Assembly (NCBI GenBank): GCA_902559905.1
Contig: CACEJV010000001.1
Coordinates: 52,495 to 116,494, forward strand
Length of the DNA stretch: 64,000 bases
Direction: 5' to 3'
Source of the DNA: an uncultured Bacteroidota bacterium
GTDB lineage: Bacteria > Bacteroidota > Bacteroidia > Flavobacteriales > Flavobacteriaceae
The position numbers were made by a program, and so were the translations under genes. A model generated the notes under the pieces. That model did no database searches and was not told the origin of the DNA. It saw nothing but the letters and a program-made list of their open reading frames with translations. This document shows positions 30,335-35,621 of this stretch, piece by piece. Each line of letters begins with the position of its first letter. The first letter of the stretch is position 1.

Positions 30335-30994
30335 TTAAAATTCCTTCTTTAAAATATAAATGTCTTCTATAAGTCTTTCCATTGATTCAGAGTTTGTTCC
30401 ATCATAAAAGCCTCTTATTCTTCTGTTAGGATCAACTAATACAAAATTTTCAGTATGAATCATATCATACTTAATATCACTTTCAATATCCTCTGCTACT
30501 AGATAAGACTTTCTGGCAAGATTATATATTTGTTTTTTATCTCCAGTCACAAGATTCCATTTTGAATCAATAATTCCATTATCTATAGAATAATCTTTTA
30601 GAATGTCAACCGAATCAATTTCAGGGGTAACGGTATGAGAAAGAAGTAAAACTTGATTATCGTTAATAAACTCTTTTTGGATATCAATCATGTTGTCCTT
30701 CATAATTGGACAAATTCCTGGACATGTAGTAAAGAAAAAATCAGCTACATAAATTTTTCCATCATATATTTCATTTGTGACTGTATCGTTATTCTGATTA
30801 ATTAATTTAAAGTCATCGATTTTATGAAATCTTTTTACATGTTGAATTGTACTATCAACTAATTGAAACTTTACCATACTAGGTTGATATATTGGTAATT
30901 TTTTTTCAGGTGTCAATACATTATAAAATGAAAACACTGTTATAAGAGAAATTATTATCATTGAAGTTGCAAAAAGCCAGTACTTTTTTAACAT
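30335..30994 (-). CDS. SCO1/SenC-family copper chaperone / thiol-disulfide oxidoreductase
   Basis: Membrane anchor and CPGICP (CxxxC) within a thioredoxin fold. The likely start is MLKKYWLF. The ORF-track start at 31030 is 12 codons longer. Confidence 0.85.
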   Translation of the reverse strand: MLKKYWLFATSMIIISLITVFSFYNVLTPEKKLPIYQPSMVKFQLVDSTIQHVKRFHKIDDFKLINQNNDTVTNEIYDGKIYVADFFFTTCPGICPIMKDNMIDIQKEFINDNQVLLLSHTVTPEIDSVDILKDYSIDNGIIDSKWNLVTGDKKQIYNLARKSYLVAEDIESDIKYDMIHTENFVLVDPNRRIRGFYDGTNSESMERLIEDIYILKKEF

Positions 30995-31046
30995 ATTTTT
31001 TCTAAATATTGGGAAACAAAGATAATTCAAGGAATTAAAAAAATAT

Positions 31047-32394: not shown

Positions 32395-32400
32395 AAAAAA

Positions 32401-32418
32401 GGCTGGGTTAACCCAGCC
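32401..32418. terminator. bidirectional intrinsic terminator
   Basis: GGCTGGGTTAACCCAGCC is a perfect 7-bp stem with a TTAA loop (the full 18-mer is self-complementary). It is preceded by A8 and lies between convergent rseP and the receptor gene. Confidence 0.65.
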
Positions 32419-32448
32419 CTTAACAAATAACTTCAAATACAAAAAACT

Positions 32449-34605
32449 TTAGAAGTTATATTTTAATCCAACAGATATGTTTCTACCCATCTCATGAATT
32501 CCTGCTGTTTTAAGTCTTGATAAATGATCGTAGTATTCTTTATCAAAAACATTATCAATATTCCAGAAAATATTTAAGTCATTTCCTAGTAATGATGTCA
32601 TCCATGATCCAGATAAATTTAAAAGTGAATATCCATCAGTAGACTCCTCATACATTGCTGTTCTATTTTGTTGAGCCTTGGCTACAAAGTCTACTTCAAA
32701 TGAATAATTGCTAGAAAAACTAATGTTGAAAACTTGATTGAAAGTTAATGGTGATATATATGGTAATGCCATACCGTCTTGTGTTTCACCAAAAATATAT
32801 TCTAGGGAAGAATAAAAAGATAACCAGTCAAAACTTGTATTTTTATTTAGATGTATTTCCCCTCCATAAAGTGTTGCATCTTGCTGTAAATAATTATGAA
32901 GCATTAAACCATCAATAACAGTGTTTGTTGGCTCCAAGTATATGTAATCTCTAATATCATTAAAAAATAAATCAAATGATAAGACTGAATTTTCACCATT
33001 AACTTGAAGTGATAAATCTGTTTGGAAGCTATTTTCAGCTAGTAAATTAGGATCCCCTTTTTTATACATGAATGTCCCATGATGAGATCCATCAGCATAT
33101 AGCTCAATTAAGTTTGGTGACCTAAAACCAGTACTTAAATTAAATCTTAAAGTTGAGTTAGAAAATTCTTTTTTCAAACCAAGTGATCCATTAAAATTAG
33201 AAAAATCGGAAGAAGATGATCCAGATGAAATGGATCTATTGTCATATCTAATTCCAATTAGTGCATCTGAAGAATTGCTAAGTGTAAACTGTCCAAGAGC
33301 ATATAGTCCAAAATCGTTCATCTCTGCATCTGGTATTAAAGTTTCATGACCAAAATTCTTATTCGTCTGACTTAATAGACTCGTACCAATAGTTAGATTC
33401 AAATCTTCTGACTGAGGGAGTACTAAACTAATGTCTAATGTATTTGTTAATAGTTCCATGTCTAATTCAGCTTCACCTTCTTCATGTCCTTCATGATCAT
33501 CATGATCATCGTGATCATCGTGATCCATATGATCATCGTGGTCCTCTTCACCATGTTCTTCATGATCATCATGATCATCATGATCATCATGTTCCTCCTC
33601 ACCATGGCCCCCAAATTCTTTTCTTTCGTTAAATTGTTGACCTAATGTGACATTAAGTACATGATTGTTTCCAAGATCAAACGAATTCTTCCATGTTAAG
33701 GTTGTATGCTTTAGTTCTTGGTAATGATCATCACCGTGTCCTTCATGATCGTCGTGGTCATCATGGTCCATATGATCATCGTGGTCATCATGGTCCATAT
33801 GATCGTCGTGGTTATCATGGTCCATATGATCGTCGTGGTCATCATGACCTTCATCCATATGAGGAATTCCAAGATCACTATCAACTCTACTAAATCTCAG
33901 CTCAGAGGTAAATTTATCACTAGAGTATTGTAAATCTGCTTTAAGCTCATTTTGTTCAAACCATGTGTTTTCAATTTCACCATCTGGAGTAGAAAAATTA
34001 TCATTGTCAATCATATCTGCTCTAAGATTAAAACTAAACTTTCCAGAAGTACCTTTAATTCCTAGATTGTTAGTAACCCCATTATAATTTGAATTGTAAA
34101 CTCCTGTATAGTCAATTGCTAAACCATTACTTGTGTTGAATTTTTCAGGCTCAACATAAAGAACTCCTCCCATAGCGTCACTACCGTAGAGAACATATAA
34201 TGGTCCCTTTATAACCTCTATAGACTCAACACCTGAAGATGAGATACCGATACCGTGCTCTTCACCCCATTGTTGATTTTCTAATCTCACGCCTTGATTA
34301 TATACAACCACTCTATTGAAACTTAATCCTCTAACTGATGGCTTTGCAATATTAGGTCCTGTTGTTATTACAGATACTCCTGGTAACTTTGAGAGTGATT
34401 TACTAATATATTGTTTTAGTATTGGGTTAATATCACCCATATTAATTTTATCAACTTTGATTACAGATTTACCTAGTGTTTGACTAAAAGGTATTGATAA
34501 TACTATTTCATCTAACTCAAATGGGTCCGTAGCTACTTGTGATAAAACTGGTTTTGTTAAAAATAGCATAACTGCTATGATACTTATAATATGTTTTATT
34601 TTCAT
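32449..34605 (-). CDS. TonB-dependent outer-membrane receptor with two long His/Asp/Glu-rich inserts (putative divalent-metal, e.g. zinc, receptor)
   Basis: Signal peptide, plug (LDEIVLSIP, IEVIKGPLYVLYGSDAMGGVLYV), barrel, terminal KYNF. The first insert is HMDEGHDDHDDHMDHDNHDDHMDHDDHDDHMDHDDHDDHEGHGDDH (33724-33861). The second is GGHGEEEHDDHDDHDDHEEHGEEDHDDHMDHDDHDDHDDHEGHEEGE (33472-33612). Confidence 0.9.
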   Translation of the reverse strand: MKIKHIISIIAVMLFLTKPVLSQVATDPFELDEIVLSIPFSQTLGKSVIKVDKINMGDINPILKQYISKSLSKLPGVSVITTGPNIAKPSVRGLSFNRVVVYNQGVRLENQQWGEEHGIGISSSGVESIEVIKGPLYVLYGSDAMGGVLYVEPEKFNTSNGLAIDYTGVYNSNYNGVTNNLGIKGTSGKFSFNLRADMIDNDNFSTPDGEIENTWFEQNELKADLQYSSDKFTSELRFSRVDSDLGIPHMDEGHDDHDDHMDHDNHDDHMDHDDHDDHMDHDDHDDHEGHGDDHYQELKHTTLTWKNSFDLGNNHVLNVTLGQQFNERKEFGGHGEEEHDDHDDHDDHEEHGEEDHDDHMDHDDHDDHDDHEGHEEGEAELDMELLTNTLDISLVLPQSEDLNLTIGTSLLSQTNKNFGHETLIPDAEMNDFGLYALGQFTLSNSSDALIGIRYDNRSISSGSSSSDFSNFNGSLGLKKEFSNSTLRFNLSTGFRSPNLIELYADGSHHGTFMYKKGDPNLLAENSFQTDLSLQVNGENSVLSFDLFFNDIRDYIYLEPTNTVIDGLMLHNYLQQDATLYGGEIHLNKNTSFDWLSFYSSLEYIFGETQDGMALPYISPLTFNQVFNISFSSNYSFEVDFVAKAQQNRTAMYEESTDGYSLLNLSGSWMTSLLGNDLNIFWNIDNVFDKEYYDHLSRLKTAGIHEMGRNISVGLKYNF
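33763..33843 (-). repeat. three tandem 27-bp coding repeats (each encoding an HDDHDDHMD-type unit)
   Basis: Units at 33763-33789, 33790-33816 and 33817-33843 differ at only a few positions. They lie in frame inside the receptor gene. Confidence 0.9.
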
Positions 34606-34655
34606 TTTATTAATTATTTATTATTGTGAACTTCTTAATTATAGTTCTATAAAAA

Positions 34656-34675
34656 CCCCTCCTATAAAGAAGGGG
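34656..34675 (-). terminator. terminator-like hairpin between the mini-lipoprotein gene and the receptor gene
   Basis: The minus strand reads CCCCTTC-TTTATA-GGAGGGG followed by TTTTTAT. The stem is 7 bp including one G-U pair. It could attenuate read-through. Confidence 0.4.
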
Positions 34676-34685
34676 TATTTTACTT

Positions 34686-34817
34686 TTATCTGTTTGTAAC
34701 AAATGCAATGTGGTCATGATCGTCATCGTGGTCATGGCCATCATGATCATCTTTTTCACATGATGCTAATGCAAGTGAAATAACAGAAAACATTAGTATG
34801 TATATATACTTATTCAT
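34686..34817 (-). CDS. 43-aa His/Asp-rich mini-lipoprotein (unannotated, below the ORF-track cutoff)
   Basis: Reverse complement: MNKYIYILMFSVISLALASCEKDDHDGHDHDDDHDHIAFVTNR. It has a signal peptide plus lipobox LASC, then EKDD (acidic surface-export-like residues), then a His/Asp run of the same flavour as the receptor inserts. It lies 80 nt upstream of the receptor gene on the same strand. Confidence 0.55.
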   Translation of the reverse strand: MNKYIYILMFSVISLALASCEKDDHDGHDHDDDHDHIAFVTNR

Positions 34818-34887
34818 AGTTAAAAATTTAAAATTTTAGAAAAATGCTAGATCACATATTTGATCCAACAAAAAATTGAATTAATAG

Positions 34888-35196
34888 TTAAGCCAAATTA
34901 GGTGGGCCTCTTTTTTTAGTAGATTTGTAATCTGTTTTTACAAATAATCTATCATACTTATAAAAAGAATAACTAAAGATGTGAGGTGTAAATGATTCAT
35001 AAATATCTTGTGAAAAAAAACCAGTCTCATCTTCTTGATTTGAAAACAAAGAAATCTGACATTTTAACTTGGAATCATTGATATTTACACCTTCTGAAAT
35101 AAAAGTGTCATGGGAATCATACAAAACATGAAAAGCTTCAACTACTGTTGGAAACAACAGAGAGGTGAACAAAATAAAACTGTATAGATTCCTCAC
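34888..35196 (-). CDS. hypothetical secreted protein, 102 aa, first gene of the putative metal-receptor operon
   Basis: Signal peptide MRNLYSFILFTSLLFPTVVEA. No recognisable family. A -7 box lies immediately upstream. Confidence 0.5.
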   Translation of the reverse strand: MRNLYSFILFTSLLFPTVVEAFHVLYDSHDTFISEGVNINDSKLKCQISLFSNQEDETGFFSQDIYESFTPHIFSYSFYKYDRLFVKTDYKSTKKRGPPNLA

Positions 35197-35201
35197 GAAA
35201 A

Positions 35202-35209
35202 CAAATATA
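35202..35209 (-). promoter_or_regulatory. candidate -7 promoter box (TATATTTG on the minus strand)
   Basis: Plus strand CAAATATA, only 5 nt upstream of the ATG at 35196, which implies a very short or absent leader. Confidence 0.4.
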
Positions 35210-35396: not shown

Positions 35397-35621
35397 TTAG
35401 TCACAAGGTCCCTCTGTAAATGATTTAACTCCACTAAAAGTTGAGGCATAACAATAGTTGGGATATGTTTTACCATCACATCCACATACTGGATCATATA
35501 TCTCTATACAAGCAGATGTAATATCGATTAATGATTCATCAATACAATTTTCATTGTTATTTTCTTTATCCTTAGAGCAAGAAACTATTATTAGGATTAA
35601 TAGAGATATCCATTTTTTCAT
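35397..35621 (-). CDS. Kazal-type protease-inhibitor domain lipoprotein
   Basis: Lipobox IVSCSKDKE. CIEIYDPVCGCDGKTYPNYCYASTFSGVKSFTEGPC fits the Kazal signature (Y-x-P-V-C-G-x-D-G-x-T-Y-x-N-x-C). Confidence 0.8.
   Translation of the reverse strand: MKKWISLLILIIVSCSKDKENNNENCIDESLIDITSACIEIYDPVCGCDGKTYPNYCYASTFSGVKSFTEGPCD

What the first reader, a model, noticed from the sequence alone, without database searches (positions are those of the whole stretch)
34686..34817. Unannotated 43-aa lipoprotein whose mature part is essentially a His/Asp metal-binding peptide
Seen: a minus-strand ORF gives MNKYIYILMFSVISLALASCEKDDHDGHDHDDDHDHIAFVTNR. It has a canonical signal peptide and lipobox (LASC). 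The mature peptide would be about 24 residues, and 13 of them form a DDHDGHDHDDDHDH run. It lies 80 nt upstream of the His-rich receptor on the same strand.

Established: in Bacteroidota, a Lys plus acidic residues right after the +1 Cys act as a lipoprotein surface-export signal, as described in Capnocytophaga canimorsus. Here the sequence is C-E-K-D-D. TonB-dependent receptors in this phylum usually work with a surface lipoprotein partner (SusD, HmuY and similar).

Inference: this is a minimal, lipid-tethered metal-capture partner for the receptor. It is easily missed by gene callers because of its size.
Basis: partly seen in the sequence, partly recalled or inferred. Interest (0 to 1): 0.65.

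Follow-up and report, generated by a model that had tools for sequence, protein, structure and literature searches.

The report
Tiny His/Asp lipoprotein beside metal receptor
A real, conserved 43-codon gene in an uncultured marine flavobacterium (NS5 group) encodes a lipid-anchored peptide of about 24 residues, mostly histidine and aspartate, that always sits just upstream of a ZnuD/OprC-like outer-membrane metal receptor and probably acts as a tethered metal-catching line for it.

Summary
ORF 34686..34817(-) encodes MNKYIYILMFSVISLALASCEKDDHDGHDHDDDHDHIAFVTNR, 80 nt upstream of a His-rich TonB-dependent receptor.

It is a real gene:
- Orthologues upstream of receptors only 60-66% identical keep the frame. 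pN/pS is 0.2-0.45 and all indels are multiples of 3.
- The lipobox Cys is kept, with an invariant C-x-K-D-D. This matches the published optimal Bacteroidota surface-export signal, C-X-K-(D/E)2-X.
- It belongs to an unnamed family of 30-60 aa lipoproteins in marine Flavobacteriales: 288 clusters at 90% identity, about 34 at 50%.
- Family members always lie in the order ~100-aa 'RGPP' protein, mini-lipoprotein, GC-rich hairpin, (181-aa lipoprotein), receptor.

New points:
- A stable terminator-like hairpin follows the stop codon in all 31 distinct sequences folded.
- The gene is absent from several sublineages.
- In a second subfamily the receptor has no His-rich loops.
- One relative of the 181-aa lipoprotein carries the His/Asp stretch fused after its own lipobox Cys.

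A leader-peptide attenuator is disfavoured. Metal binding, surface exposure, hand-off and the identity of the metal (zinc is my guess) remain inference. No library model or paper describes the family. I rate it a new variant of a known kind.

The parts
34686..34817 (-). Mini-lipoprotein gene (43 codons plus TAA)
   Evidence: Sequence and ORF list. Purifying selection and in-frame indels across orthologues. Family of 288 clusters.
34761..34817 (-). Type II (lipoprotein) signal peptide, residues 1-19. The lipobox L-A-S-C spans 34758..34769.
   Evidence: K2/K3 and the hydrophobic core are conserved and the Cys is invariant. A PROSITE-type lipobox is present in 162 of 168 family clusters. The only library similarities are to N-termini of Bacteroidota lipoproteins.
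34746..34760 (-). C-E-K-D-D, candidate lipoprotein surface-export signal (LES)
   Evidence: K+3, D+4 and D+5 are invariant in the 16-sequence alignment. The published optimum is C-X-K-(D/E)2-X. The exact pattern occurs in 121 of 168 family clusters, and an acidic pair near the Cys in 163.
34710..34751 (-). His/Asp tract DDHDGHDHDDDHDH (5 His, 8 Asp), the presumed metal-binding part
   Evidence: Conserved in composition. Its length varies by whole codons, giving 3-6 His in almost all of the 168 family clusters. GAT/GAC and CAT/CAC wobble changes occur between orthologues.
34689..34709 (-). C-terminal tail IAFVTNR, part of the conserved motif H-I-A-[YFM]-V
   Evidence: H36, I37, A38 and V40 are invariant in the Marisimplicoccus-type subfamily. 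Subfamily b has a different hydrophobic tail, [SA]A[IL][IV]...N[IL]A.
34649..34676 (-). GC-rich hairpin ACCCCTTCT-TTAT-AGGAGGGGT followed by a T-run. It looks like an intrinsic terminator and starts 9 nt after the stop codon.
   Evidence: Terminator scan. A hairpin at the same place with unrelated stem sequences in all 31 distinct sequences folded, dG -15 to -28 kcal/mol, z -3.7 to -8.1. It stands alone in the minimum-free-energy fold of the region.
32449..34605 (-). TonB-dependent receptor, 718 aa. Nearest solved relatives are ZnuD (zinc) and OprC (copper).
   Evidence: Pfam Plug plus TonB_dep_Rec_b-barrel. NCBIfam sub-threshold hits to the heme, ZnuD and copper receptor models. PDB 4rdr E 1.3e-13 and 6fom E 1.4e-12.
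33706..33861 (-). Receptor His/Asp-rich stretch 1 (residues 249-300)
   Evidence: Present in all orthologues. Its numbering coincides with the ZnuD loop-3 His/Asp clusters at 241-251 and 288-298, given the plug alignment offset of about 3 residues. That correspondence is inference.
33454..33606 (-). Receptor His/Asp/Glu-rich stretch 2 (residues 334-384)
   Evidence: It is separated from stretch 1 by about 33 residues that read as two strands with a short G-N-N turn, so both stretches lie on the same side of the membrane (inference).
32398..32421 (-). Terminator-like hairpin after the receptor gene, marking the end of the unit
   Evidence: 10 pairs, 6 of them G-C, followed by a T-run.
34888..35196 (-). 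102-aa 'RGPP' ORF (GTG start), the conserved first gene of this locus type. It has an N-terminal hydrophobic helix, invariant H23, H29 and C46, and ends in R-G-P-P.
   Evidence: Also present in subfamily-b loci and in Prevotellaceae (L018) and Flavobacteriaceae (L020) loci. No Pfam or NCBIfam hit and no source name.
34845..34870 (-). Palindrome or hairpin (GGATCAAATATGTGATCT core) between the RGPP ORF and the mini-lipoprotein gene
   Evidence: Analogous dyads occur at the same place in other loci, including loci without the mini-gene. Function unknown: operator or weak terminator.
35202..35209 (-). TATATTTG, an exact match to the Bacteroidota -7 promoter box TAnnTTTG, 5 nt before the GTG of the RGPP ORF
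   Evidence: Conserved in orthologous loci. No exact box lies before the mini-gene or the receptor, which suggests one transcription unit (inference). The consensus itself is from my own knowledge.

Best explanation
The ORF is a genuine gene for a very small Bacteroidota lipoprotein.

Proposed mechanism:
1. The precursor is exported and cut by signal peptidase II, then acylated at Cys20.
2. It is sent to the outer membrane. Because it carries C-x-K-D-D, it is flipped to the cell surface.
3. What remains is a lipid-anchored, probably disordered peptide of about 24 residues with two parts. One is a (Asp/His) tract of 12-18 residues that binds divalent transition-metal ions; zinc is most likely, and Co, Ni or Cu are possible. 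The other is a short conserved hydrophobic tail (H-I-A-Y/F-V) that I infer docks on the receptor or a partner.
4. The peptide acts as a tethered 'fishing line'. It raises the local metal concentration at the mouth of the adjacent ZnuD/OprC-like TonB-dependent receptor and passes metal to the receptor's own His/Asp loops for TonB-driven import.
5. The gene is probably transcribed from the promoter in front of the upstream 'RGPP' gene. The conserved hairpin just after its stop codon probably ends or stabilises most transcripts. The lipopeptide would then be made in excess over the receptor, which is reached by read-through.

Shown here: the gene is real and under purifying selection; the lipoprotein and export-signal motifs are present; the link to the receptor locus is obligate; the hairpin is conserved.

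Inferred: lipidation, surface exposure, metal binding, which metal, hand-off to the receptor, and the stoichiometry role of the hairpin.
For: Coding:
- pN/pS is 0.2-0.45, with pS near saturation. Indels are multiples of 3 and third-position changes dominate.
- The conserved N-terminal M-K-K-Y supports the ATG at 34817 as the start.

Lipoprotein:
- Invariant Cys; a lipobox in 162 of 168 family clusters.
- Only Bacteroidota lipoprotein N-termini match in NCBIfam.

Surface signal:
- Invariant C-x-K-D-D, against the experimentally defined optimum C-X-K-(D/E)2-X and minimum K-(D/E)2 (PMC5080379).

Link to the receptor:
- 8 of the 30 genome loci fetched with the receptor carry the mini-gene.
- 17 of 18 loci found by the peptide alone have the receptor directly downstream.
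- Subfamily b always has RGPP, mini-gene, hairpin, 181-aa lipoprotein, receptor.

The His/Asp tract as a module that works in cis or in trans:
- Subfamily-b receptors have no His/Asp loops; the maximum is 2-3 His in any 20 residues.
- P0191, a full-length homologue of the 181-aa lipoprotein (E 5e-9), carries the tract fused after its own lipobox Cys.
- ZnuD uses flexible extracellular His/Asp clusters to capture zinc (PMC4557270).

Hairpin:
- Present after the stop codon in all 31 distinct sequences folded, with unrelated stems.
Against: - There are no experimental data of any kind: no expression, lipidation, localisation or metal binding.
- The acidic residues of the export signal are also simply the start of the Asp/His tract, so the match could be partly coincidental. 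K+3 is not invariant in subfamily b.
- The gene is absent in at least four sublineages whose receptors look the same. The receptor therefore works without it, and there is no visible compensation in the length of the receptor loops.
- The T-run after the hairpin is weak or missing in some loci (L037, L047, L048). 'Terminator' may therefore be the wrong name in those.
- The metal cannot be assigned. The receptor scores equally poorly against the heme, ZnuD and copper receptor models, and a SCO1/SenC copper chaperone gene lies 1.4 kb away.
- Short His/Asp peptides typically bind Zn only with micromolar to nanomolar affinity (my own knowledge). That is weak compared with picomolar free Zn in seawater.
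- Whether the receptor's His/Asp stretches are extracellular was not shown, because the structure model failed.
Confidence: 0.55

Rival explanations
1. Same gene and same lipid anchor, but the peptide faces the periplasm, on the inner leaflet of the outer membrane or on the inner membrane. There it acts as a metal acceptor or buffer that takes metal released by the receptor and passes it on. It would play the role of the His-rich loops of ZnuA or ZinT.
For: His-rich flexible segments are well known in periplasmic zinc proteins (ZnuA and ZinT are cited in PMC10957091, and PMC4557270). The D-D of the 'export signal' may simply be part of the metal tract. The companion RGPP protein has one N-terminal helix and conserved His/Cys, so it could be a periplasm-facing membrane partner.
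Against: K+3-D-D at the exact optimal position is invariant in this subfamily. In C. canimorsus that motif is sufficient to send a periplasmic lipoprotein to the surface. The 181-aa lipoprotein of subfamily b also starts C-S-K-D-D, as expected for a surface complex.
Confidence: 0.17
2. The lipopeptide is on the surface and binds cations, but it does not feed the receptor. It might be a metal buffer or shield against toxic metals. It might bind Ca/Mg to stabilise the outer membrane. Or it might capture another ligand such as heme, through His ligation, for a heme-type receptor.
For: The receptor's best NCBIfam scores are to the heme/hemoglobin receptor models (139 and 125 bits). It has an FRSP...DPNL box with two His, like heme receptors (the motif comparison is from my own knowledge). 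The gene is dispensable in several lineages.
Against: The gene is never seen away from this receptor locus type in any locus examined. The receptor itself carries the same His/Asp chemistry. ZnuD resembles heme receptors yet imports zinc.
Confidence: 0.15
3. The ORF is mainly a regulatory leader peptide. Translation through the His/Asp codons, 9 nt ahead of a terminator hairpin, would set how much transcription reads through into the receptor gene. That gene itself needs 39 His and 76 Asp codons. The logic would be that of the his and thr attenuators.
For: Short ORF with 5 His and 8 Asp codons, then a terminator-like hairpin, then the receptor gene. A weak Rfam Thr_leader match at 34647..34761 (23.2 bits, E 0.13). 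A ribosome at the stop codon would cover the 5' arm of the hairpin (inference).
Against: The Rfam score is far below the gathering score of 55. No alternative antiterminator pairing appears in the minimum-free-energy or centroid fold; the hairpin stands alone. The signal peptide, lipobox Cys, K-D-D and C-terminal HIAYV motif are under purifying selection, which a leader peptide does not need. The downstream genes are not amino-acid biosynthesis genes. In subfamily b the next gene is another lipoprotein.
Confidence: 0.04
4. Spurious ORF, or a decaying remnant of the 5' end of a longer lipoprotein gene such as a 181-aa lipoprotein with an N-terminal His/Asp stretch like P0191.
For: Larger lipoproteins that start with the same signal peptide plus His/Asp stretch exist. 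Small ORFs are abundant in this AT-rich sequence.
Against: The length is stable: the mature part is 21-29 residues in most of the 168 clusters. pN/pS is well below 1. The stop codon is followed by a hairpin in every locus. The mini-gene co-exists with the intact 181-aa lipoprotein in subfamily b.
Confidence: 0.02

Closest known systems
His/Asp clusters of extracellular loop 3 of the zinc receptor ZnuD (Neisseria; PDB 4rdr)
   Same: Flexible stretches rich in His, Asp and Glu at the receptor mouth capture zinc and pass it to a buried site (PMC4557270). ZnuD is the nearest solved relative of the window's receptor. That receptor carries much longer stretches of the same kind at the corresponding numbering.
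   Different: In ZnuD the stretches are part of the receptor chain. Here an additional copy is a separate, lipid-anchored 24-residue peptide with its own gene and hairpin. In subfamily b it is the only copy.
Surface lipoprotein partners of TonB-dependent receptors in Bacteroidota (SusD, HmuY, BtuG, XusB)
   Same: Encoded next to the receptor, lipid-anchored, carrying an N-terminal export signal, and thought to capture the ligand at the surface (PMC5080379; PMC6143338 is listed; the rest is my own knowledge).
   Different: Those are folded proteins of roughly 20-60 kDa with defined binding pockets. This one is about 2.8 kDa, of low complexity and probably unfolded, with no homology to any of them (no Pfam or NCBIfam hit).
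His-rich flexible segments of periplasmic or secreted zinc proteins (ZnuA loop, ZinT and ZepA N-termini, PA4063 loops)
   Same: Unstructured His/acidic segments that bind zinc with modest affinity and assist delivery to a transporter.
   Different: Those are appendages of folded soluble proteins. Here the segment is essentially the whole mature protein, and it is membrane-tethered.
PG1828 family lipoprotein (NCBIfam NF050142, 59-position model) and other very small lipoproteins (entericidins, Lpp)
   Same: Very short Bacteroidota lipoprotein precursors. 25 of 28 family members give weak hits to the PG1828 model.
   Different: The hits cover only the signal peptide and lipobox (positions 1-27) and score 19-27 bits against a cut-off of 50. 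The window's member gives no hit. No His/Asp tract or receptor linkage is known for those families (my own knowledge).
Leader-peptide attenuators (hisL, thrL)
   Same: A tiny ORF rich in one or two codons, followed by a terminator, ahead of the regulated gene.
   Different: There is no antiterminator and the Rfam match is sub-threshold. The peptide has a conserved export and lipidation signal.

Membership tests
Bacterial lipoprotein precursor (signal peptidase II substrate) | Positively charged N-region, hydrophobic core, lipobox [LVI][ASTVI][GAS]-C with an invariant Cys | tested here: met
   The precursor starts M-N-K-Y, has the core IYILMFSVISLA, and ends the signal peptide in L-A-S-C. The Cys is invariant. 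The PROSITE-type lipobox pattern is met in 162 of 168 family clusters.
Bacterial lipoprotein precursor (signal peptidase II substrate) | Acylation of the Cys and cleavage by LspA | not testable with these tools
   Needs globomycin sensitivity, palmitate labelling or mass spectrometry.
Bacteroidota surface-exposed lipoproteins carrying a lipoprotein export signal (LES) | C-X-K-(D/E)2-X at +1 to +6, or the minimal K-(D/E)2 or Q-A-(D/E)2 | tested here: met
   The definition is from PMC5080379. The window has C-E-K-D-D-H. K+3, D+4 and D+5 are invariant in A2. 121 of 168 clusters match exactly, and 163 of 168 have an acidic pair within two residues of the Cys.
Bacteroidota surface-exposed lipoproteins carrying a lipoprotein export signal (LES) | Demonstrated exposure on intact cells | not testable with these tools
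   Needs protease shaving or surface labelling.
SusD / HmuY / BtuG / other named receptor-partner lipoprotein families | Sequence membership in the family model | tested here: not met
   No Pfam or NCBIfam family reaches its threshold for the window protein or for any of the 28 family members scanned.
PG1828 family lipoprotein (NF050142) | Score of at least 50 bits over the 59-position model | tested here: not met
   The best score is 27.5 bits and covers only positions 1-27. The window member gives no hit.
Leader-peptide transcription attenuator | Short ORF with a run of regulatory codons followed by an intrinsic terminator | tested here: met
   Five His and eight Asp codons, with a hairpin plus T-run starting 9 nt after the stop codon.
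Leader-peptide transcription attenuator | A mutually exclusive antiterminator that overlaps the ORF end and the terminator 5' arm | tested here: not met
   The minimum-free-energy and centroid folds of 34600..34900 keep the terminator hairpin isolated, and no complementary segment lies in the ORF.
Leader-peptide transcription attenuator | Match to a curated leader RNA model | tested here: not met
   Thr_leader scores 23.2 bits against a gathering score of 55, E 0.13.
ZnuD zinc receptor (NCBIfam NF038289), for the adjacent receptor | Score at or above the curated cut-off of 950 bits | tested here: not met
   124.4 bits. It is a related TonB-dependent receptor but not a ZnuD equivalog. The OprC/copper model scores 80.5 bits against a cut-off of 472.
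ZnuD zinc receptor (NCBIfam NF038289), for the adjacent receptor | His/Asp clusters on an extracellular loop | tested here: inconclusive
   Two long His/Asp/Glu stretches lie at residues 249-300 and 334-384, numerically matching ZnuD loop 3. Topology was not confirmed because the AlphaFold2 model had a pLDDT of 33.

The most novel reading that the evidence does not exclude
The family may be a ribosomally made, lipid-tethered 'zincophore'. It would be the smallest known surface partner of a TonB-dependent receptor: a movable His/Asp module that evolution places on receptor loops, on the N-terminus of a 181-aa lipoprotein, or as a free-standing lipopeptide. It would be made in excess thanks to its own terminator, and possibly shed on vesicles as a shared metal scavenger. 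In streamlined ocean flavobacteria it would take the place of small-molecule metallophores.
Probability: 0.3. Interest if true: 0.8.

Novelty: new variant of a known kind. Interest (0 to 1): 0.6.

Why it matters
The NS5 marine group, to which Ca. [quoted passage not shown] How such streamlined cells obtain trace metals is poorly known.

If the reading is right, a gene of 132 nt supplies a metal-capture device for an outer-membrane importer. Gene callers and family libraries largely miss it.

- It would extend the 'receptor plus surface lipoprotein' rule of Bacteroidota to metals, and to a partner that is little more than a lipid plus a metal-binding peptide.
- It would give an easily synthesised, testable object for studying hand-off of metal ions to TonB-dependent receptors.
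- Presence or absence of the gene between close relatives could be a marker of adaptation to metal scarcity in ocean metagenomes.
- The equally uncharacterised 'RGPP' protein and 181-aa lipoprotein define, with it, a locus type with no library model.

Tried and rejected
1. Structure prediction failed.
- The receptor, folded without an alignment, gave pLDDT 33.
- The RGPP protein, with a 20-sequence alignment, gave pLDDT 48.
- Neither model was usable, so no fold search was run and the loop topology stays inferred.

2. Pfam and NCBIfam gave nothing above threshold for the mini-lipoprotein, the RGPP protein or the 181-aa lipoprotein. The recurrent PG1828-family hit is similarity of the signal peptide only.

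3. I recalled an NCBI family name, 'HYC_CC_PP', as possibly fitting the RGPP protein. No such hit appeared in NCBIfam and no paper holds the term, so I dropped it.

4. Rfam gave only a sub-threshold Thr_leader match. I rejected the attenuator idea after folding the region.

5. I tested whether the His/Asp tract is a recent copy of the receptor's loop DNA. Only 9-20-nt matches appeared, as expected from repeated GAT/CAT codons. There is no evidence for recent duplication.

6. I tested whether receptors without the mini-gene compensate with longer His/Asp loops. No trend was seen.

7. I looked for an exact Bacteroidota -7 box (TAnnTTTG) before the mini-gene or the receptor. There is none; the only one lies before the RGPP ORF.

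8. Literature searches for a His-rich small lipoprotein with a TonB-dependent receptor in Bacteroidota or Flavobacteria found nothing that describes it.

9. The last homologue search, on the RGPP protein, returned only unnamed close relatives.

Caveats on sampling:
- The metagenome scan used the single motif D[DG]HDHIA[YFM], so those 18 loci are biased towards that subfamily.
- The neighbour-joining tree has no support values.
Full report
**1. The observation**

The minus-strand ORF 34686..34817 reads MNKYIYILMFSVISLALASCEKDDHDGHDHDDDHDHIAFVTNR.
- It has a positively charged start, a hydrophobic core and the lipobox L-A-S-C.
- The mature part is 24 residues. Fourteen of them form the run DDHDGHDHDDDHDH.
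- Eighty nucleotides downstream, on the same strand, starts a 718-aa TonB-dependent receptor (32449..34605) with Plug and barrel domains.
- The receptor has two long His/Asp/Glu stretches at residues 249-300 and 334-384.

All stated details are correct. The sequence is about 30% G+C. Its closest relatives are single-cell genomes and MAGs of uncultured marine Flavobacteriales, including Candidatus Marisimplicoccus. That genus is the NS5_A lineage of the abundant NS5 marine group.

**2. Is it a gene?**

I fetched 30 genome loci with the receptor as query.
- A homologous mini-ORF sits at the same place in L001 and L014, where it is identical.
- It also sits there in L007, L008, L009, L010, L013 and L025, where the receptor is only 63-66% identical.

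In a codon alignment of seven versions:
- synonymous differences are near saturation (pS 0.54-0.73), while non-synonymous ones are 0.12-0.25 (pN/pS 0.2-0.45);
- all length differences are whole codons;
- third positions change most, for example GAT/GAC and CAT/CAC.

The Met-Lys-Lys-Tyr start, the Cys, Lys+3-Asp-Asp and a C-terminal His-Ile-Ala-[Tyr/Phe/Met]-Val are conserved. A scan of metagenome contigs with the peptide motif alone gave 18 more loci. Seventeen have the receptor directly downstream, and the eighteenth contig ends too early.

A profile of 16 versions found 288 clusters in a database of 5.8 billion proteins. They are nearly all 30-60 aa and are unnamed or called 'hypothetical protein'. 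A search without a word index, against 1.84 billion representatives at 50% identity, found 65 hits, about 34 of them clear family members.

Among 168 family-like clusters:
- 162 have a PROSITE-type lipobox;
- 121 have exactly C-x-K-[DE][DE];
- most have a mature length of 21-29 residues;
- almost all have 3-6 His.

So this is a real protein-coding family under purifying selection.

**3. Anatomy of the locus**

Upstream on the same strand lies a 102-aa ORF (34888..35196, GTG start).
- It has an N-terminal hydrophobic helix, invariant His23, His29 and Cys46, and the C-terminal motif Arg-Gly-Pro-Pro.
- It heads the locus in every relative, with or without the mini-gene.
- It is also found before related receptors in a Prevotellaceae MAG and a Flavobacteriaceae MAG.
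- An exact Bacteroidota-type -7 box, TATATTTG, lies 5 nt before its start. No exact box lies before the mini-gene or the receptor.

Between this ORF and the mini-gene is a dyad or hairpin (34845..34870). Analogues occur in other loci.

Nine nucleotides after the mini-gene's stop codon comes a G+C-rich hairpin followed by a T-run (34649..34676).
- A hairpin of -15 to -28 kcal/mol (z -3.7 to -8.1 against shuffles) follows the stop codon in all 31 distinct sequences I folded.
- The stem sequences are unrelated, so structure is conserved and sequence is not.
- The T-run is strong in the window's clade but weak or absent in some others.

A second terminator-like hairpin closes the receptor gene. 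Neighbouring genes are housekeeping: tRNA-Asn, a site-2 protease, an aminopeptidase, an rRNA methylase. The exception is a SCO1/SenC gene 1.4 kb away.

**4. A second subfamily and what it adds**

Many hits are 44-45-aa proteins such as MKKYLLLLFAFTSLAVVSCEKEDDHDDHDGHDHSAILIDDSQNLA. That one is listed in 414 blocks of the collection, on contigs of up to 1.2 Mb.

Their loci read: RGPP-type ORF, mini-lipoprotein, hairpin, a 181-aa lipoprotein that starts C-S-K-D-D-P, then an ~800-aa receptor with an N-terminal carboxypeptidase-regulatory-like domain.
- These receptors have no His/Asp stretch. No 20-residue window holds more than 2-3 His. The mini-lipoprotein is therefore the only His/Asp-rich element of the locus.
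- P0191, a 187-aa full-length homologue of the 181-aa lipoprotein (BLASTP E 5e-9), carries the stretch fused directly after its own lipobox Cys: SCKKEDKDHDDHSHEGE.

The same module thus occurs in three forms: in the receptor chain, on a larger partner lipoprotein, or free-standing. This is the strongest contextual argument that it works with the receptor.

**5. Distribution**

On a neighbour-joining tree of the receptors, the mini-gene is present across the ingroup. It is missing in L002/L003, L005/L006, L011 and L012, and in the outgroup L022/L024 (no support values).
- In the loci that lack it, the RGPP gene is followed directly by the receptor, and no remnant of the His/Asp codons is visible.
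- Receptors with and without the partner have similar His/Asp loops.

The gene is therefore accessory, not essential.

**6. Mechanism**

The published export signal for surface lipoproteins of Capnocytophaga canimorsus is optimally C-X-K-(D/E)2-X. It is sufficient to move a periplasmic lipoprotein to the surface. Acidic variants from Bacteroides and Flavobacterium also work (PMC5080379). The mini-lipoprotein matches the optimum exactly.

ZnuD is the nearest solved relative of the receptor. It uses flexible extracellular His/Asp clusters as a 'fishing net' for zinc (PMC4557270).

I therefore propose that the product is a surface-exposed, lipid-anchored metal-binding peptide. It would concentrate zinc, or another divalent transition metal, at the receptor and hand it over. 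Its conserved hydrophobic tail would provide docking. The hairpin would set a molar excess of lipopeptide over receptor.

Only the sequence features and the linkage are shown. Every biochemical step is inferred.

**7. Rivals**

- A periplasm-facing metal acceptor remains possible (0.17).
- A surface cation binder unrelated to import, or one that serves heme or copper, is also possible (0.15). The receptor cannot be assigned a substrate: its scores are heme models 139 and 125 bits, ZnuD 124 bits and copper 80 bits, all far below their cut-offs.
- An attenuator is disfavoured (0.04). The Rfam Thr_leader hit is 23 bits against a gathering score of 55, no antiterminator forms, and a leader peptide would not need a conserved lipoprotein signal.
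- A spurious ORF or pseudogene is excluded for practical purposes.

**8. Comparison with what is known**

The product works like the His/Asp loops of ZnuD and like the surface-lipoprotein partners of Bacteroidota receptors. It is a member of none of the named families, since no Pfam or NCBIfam model reaches its threshold. The PG1828 small-lipoprotein model gives sub-threshold hits on the signal peptide only.

I found no paper that describes it. I rate it a new variant of a known kind.

**9. What failed**

Both structure predictions were unusable, so the extracellular position of the receptor's His/Asp stretches rests on two inferences:
- their numerical correspondence to ZnuD loop 3;
- the two-strand, short-turn spacing between them.

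**Verdict**

Interest is 0.6.

Noticed in passing
window 34888..35196 (-); also L018, L020, L049, L053, L056, L059, L060: A ~100-aa protein heads this receptor locus type across Flavobacteriales and even in a Prevotellaceae MAG. It has one N-terminal helix, invariant His23, His29 and Cys46, and a C-terminal R-G/A-P-P. It has no Pfam or NCBIfam model and no source name. The AlphaFold2 model was unusable.
   Followed up: partly
L049 5239..5784, L053 5676..6230, L056 5238..5783, L059 6320..6865; P0191: A 181-184-aa lipoprotein family lies between the mini-lipoprotein and the receptor in subfamily-b loci. It starts C-S-K-D-D-P, has conserved I-E-E-A-D-E-H and L-I-H-Q/G-P motifs, and has no Pfam hit. 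One homologue (P0191) carries a His/Asp stretch fused after its lipobox Cys.
   Followed up: partly
window 34845..34870 (-); L002, L009, L011, L038, L039, L045, L047, L048: A dyad or hairpin between the RGPP gene and the next gene (window core GGATCAAATATGTGATCT; elsewhere ATTAGA...TCTAAT with compensating changes). It is also present in loci that lack the mini-gene. It could be an operator for a metal regulator or a weak terminator.
   Followed up: partly
window 33454..33861 (-) compared with L001, L032, L033: The receptor's His/Asp stretches differ in length between near-identical relatives (718 aa here, 706 aa in L001). This suggests repeat slippage. The mini-lipoprotein's tract likewise ranges from 3 to 6 His in almost all family clusters.
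   Followed up: partly
window 35202..35209 (-) and start codon at 35196: The exact -7 promoter box lies only 5 nt before the GTG start of the RGPP ORF, and 5-20 nt before the start in relatives. This implies a leaderless or nearly leaderless mRNA.
   Followed up: no
window 35397..35621 (-): A 74-aa ORF with a lipoprotein-type signal (…VSC) and a Kazal protease-inhibitor domain (Pfam Kazal_1 E 3.6e-6, above its cut-off). It is conserved in synteny in L064-L066. A Kazal domain is unusual in a bacterial small lipoprotein.
   Followed up: no
L036-L048, L064 (hairpins after the mini-gene): Many of the post-ORF hairpins are built from ACCTCC(T)/(A)GGAGGT arms. These are the anti-Shine-Dalgarno and Shine-Dalgarno sequences, in a phylum whose ribosomes largely ignore Shine-Dalgarno sites. 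It may be coincidence in G+C-poor genomes.
   Followed up: no
L007, L009, L013, L036-L048 (between hairpin and receptor start): A second small conserved dyad, such as GCTTTGTGCAAAGC, GCTTTATGTAAAGC or AGCTAAAGCATAATAGCT, followed by AAAATGCA-like sequence, lies just before the receptor gene in several clades. It is absent in the window's clade.
   Followed up: no
window 30335..31030 (-); L064-L066: A SCO1/SenC copper-chaperone gene lies 1.4 kb beyond the receptor, past a site-2 protease gene on the other strand. In L064-L066 it is followed by a PF10634 (Iron_transport) gene. The synteny is conserved, so a link to copper cannot be excluded.
   Followed up: no
L031 (receptor residues about 62-69) and L033 (about residue 658): The receptor reading frame is broken in two metagenome contigs that keep an intact mini-gene. 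These are assembly errors or pseudogenes.
   Followed up: no
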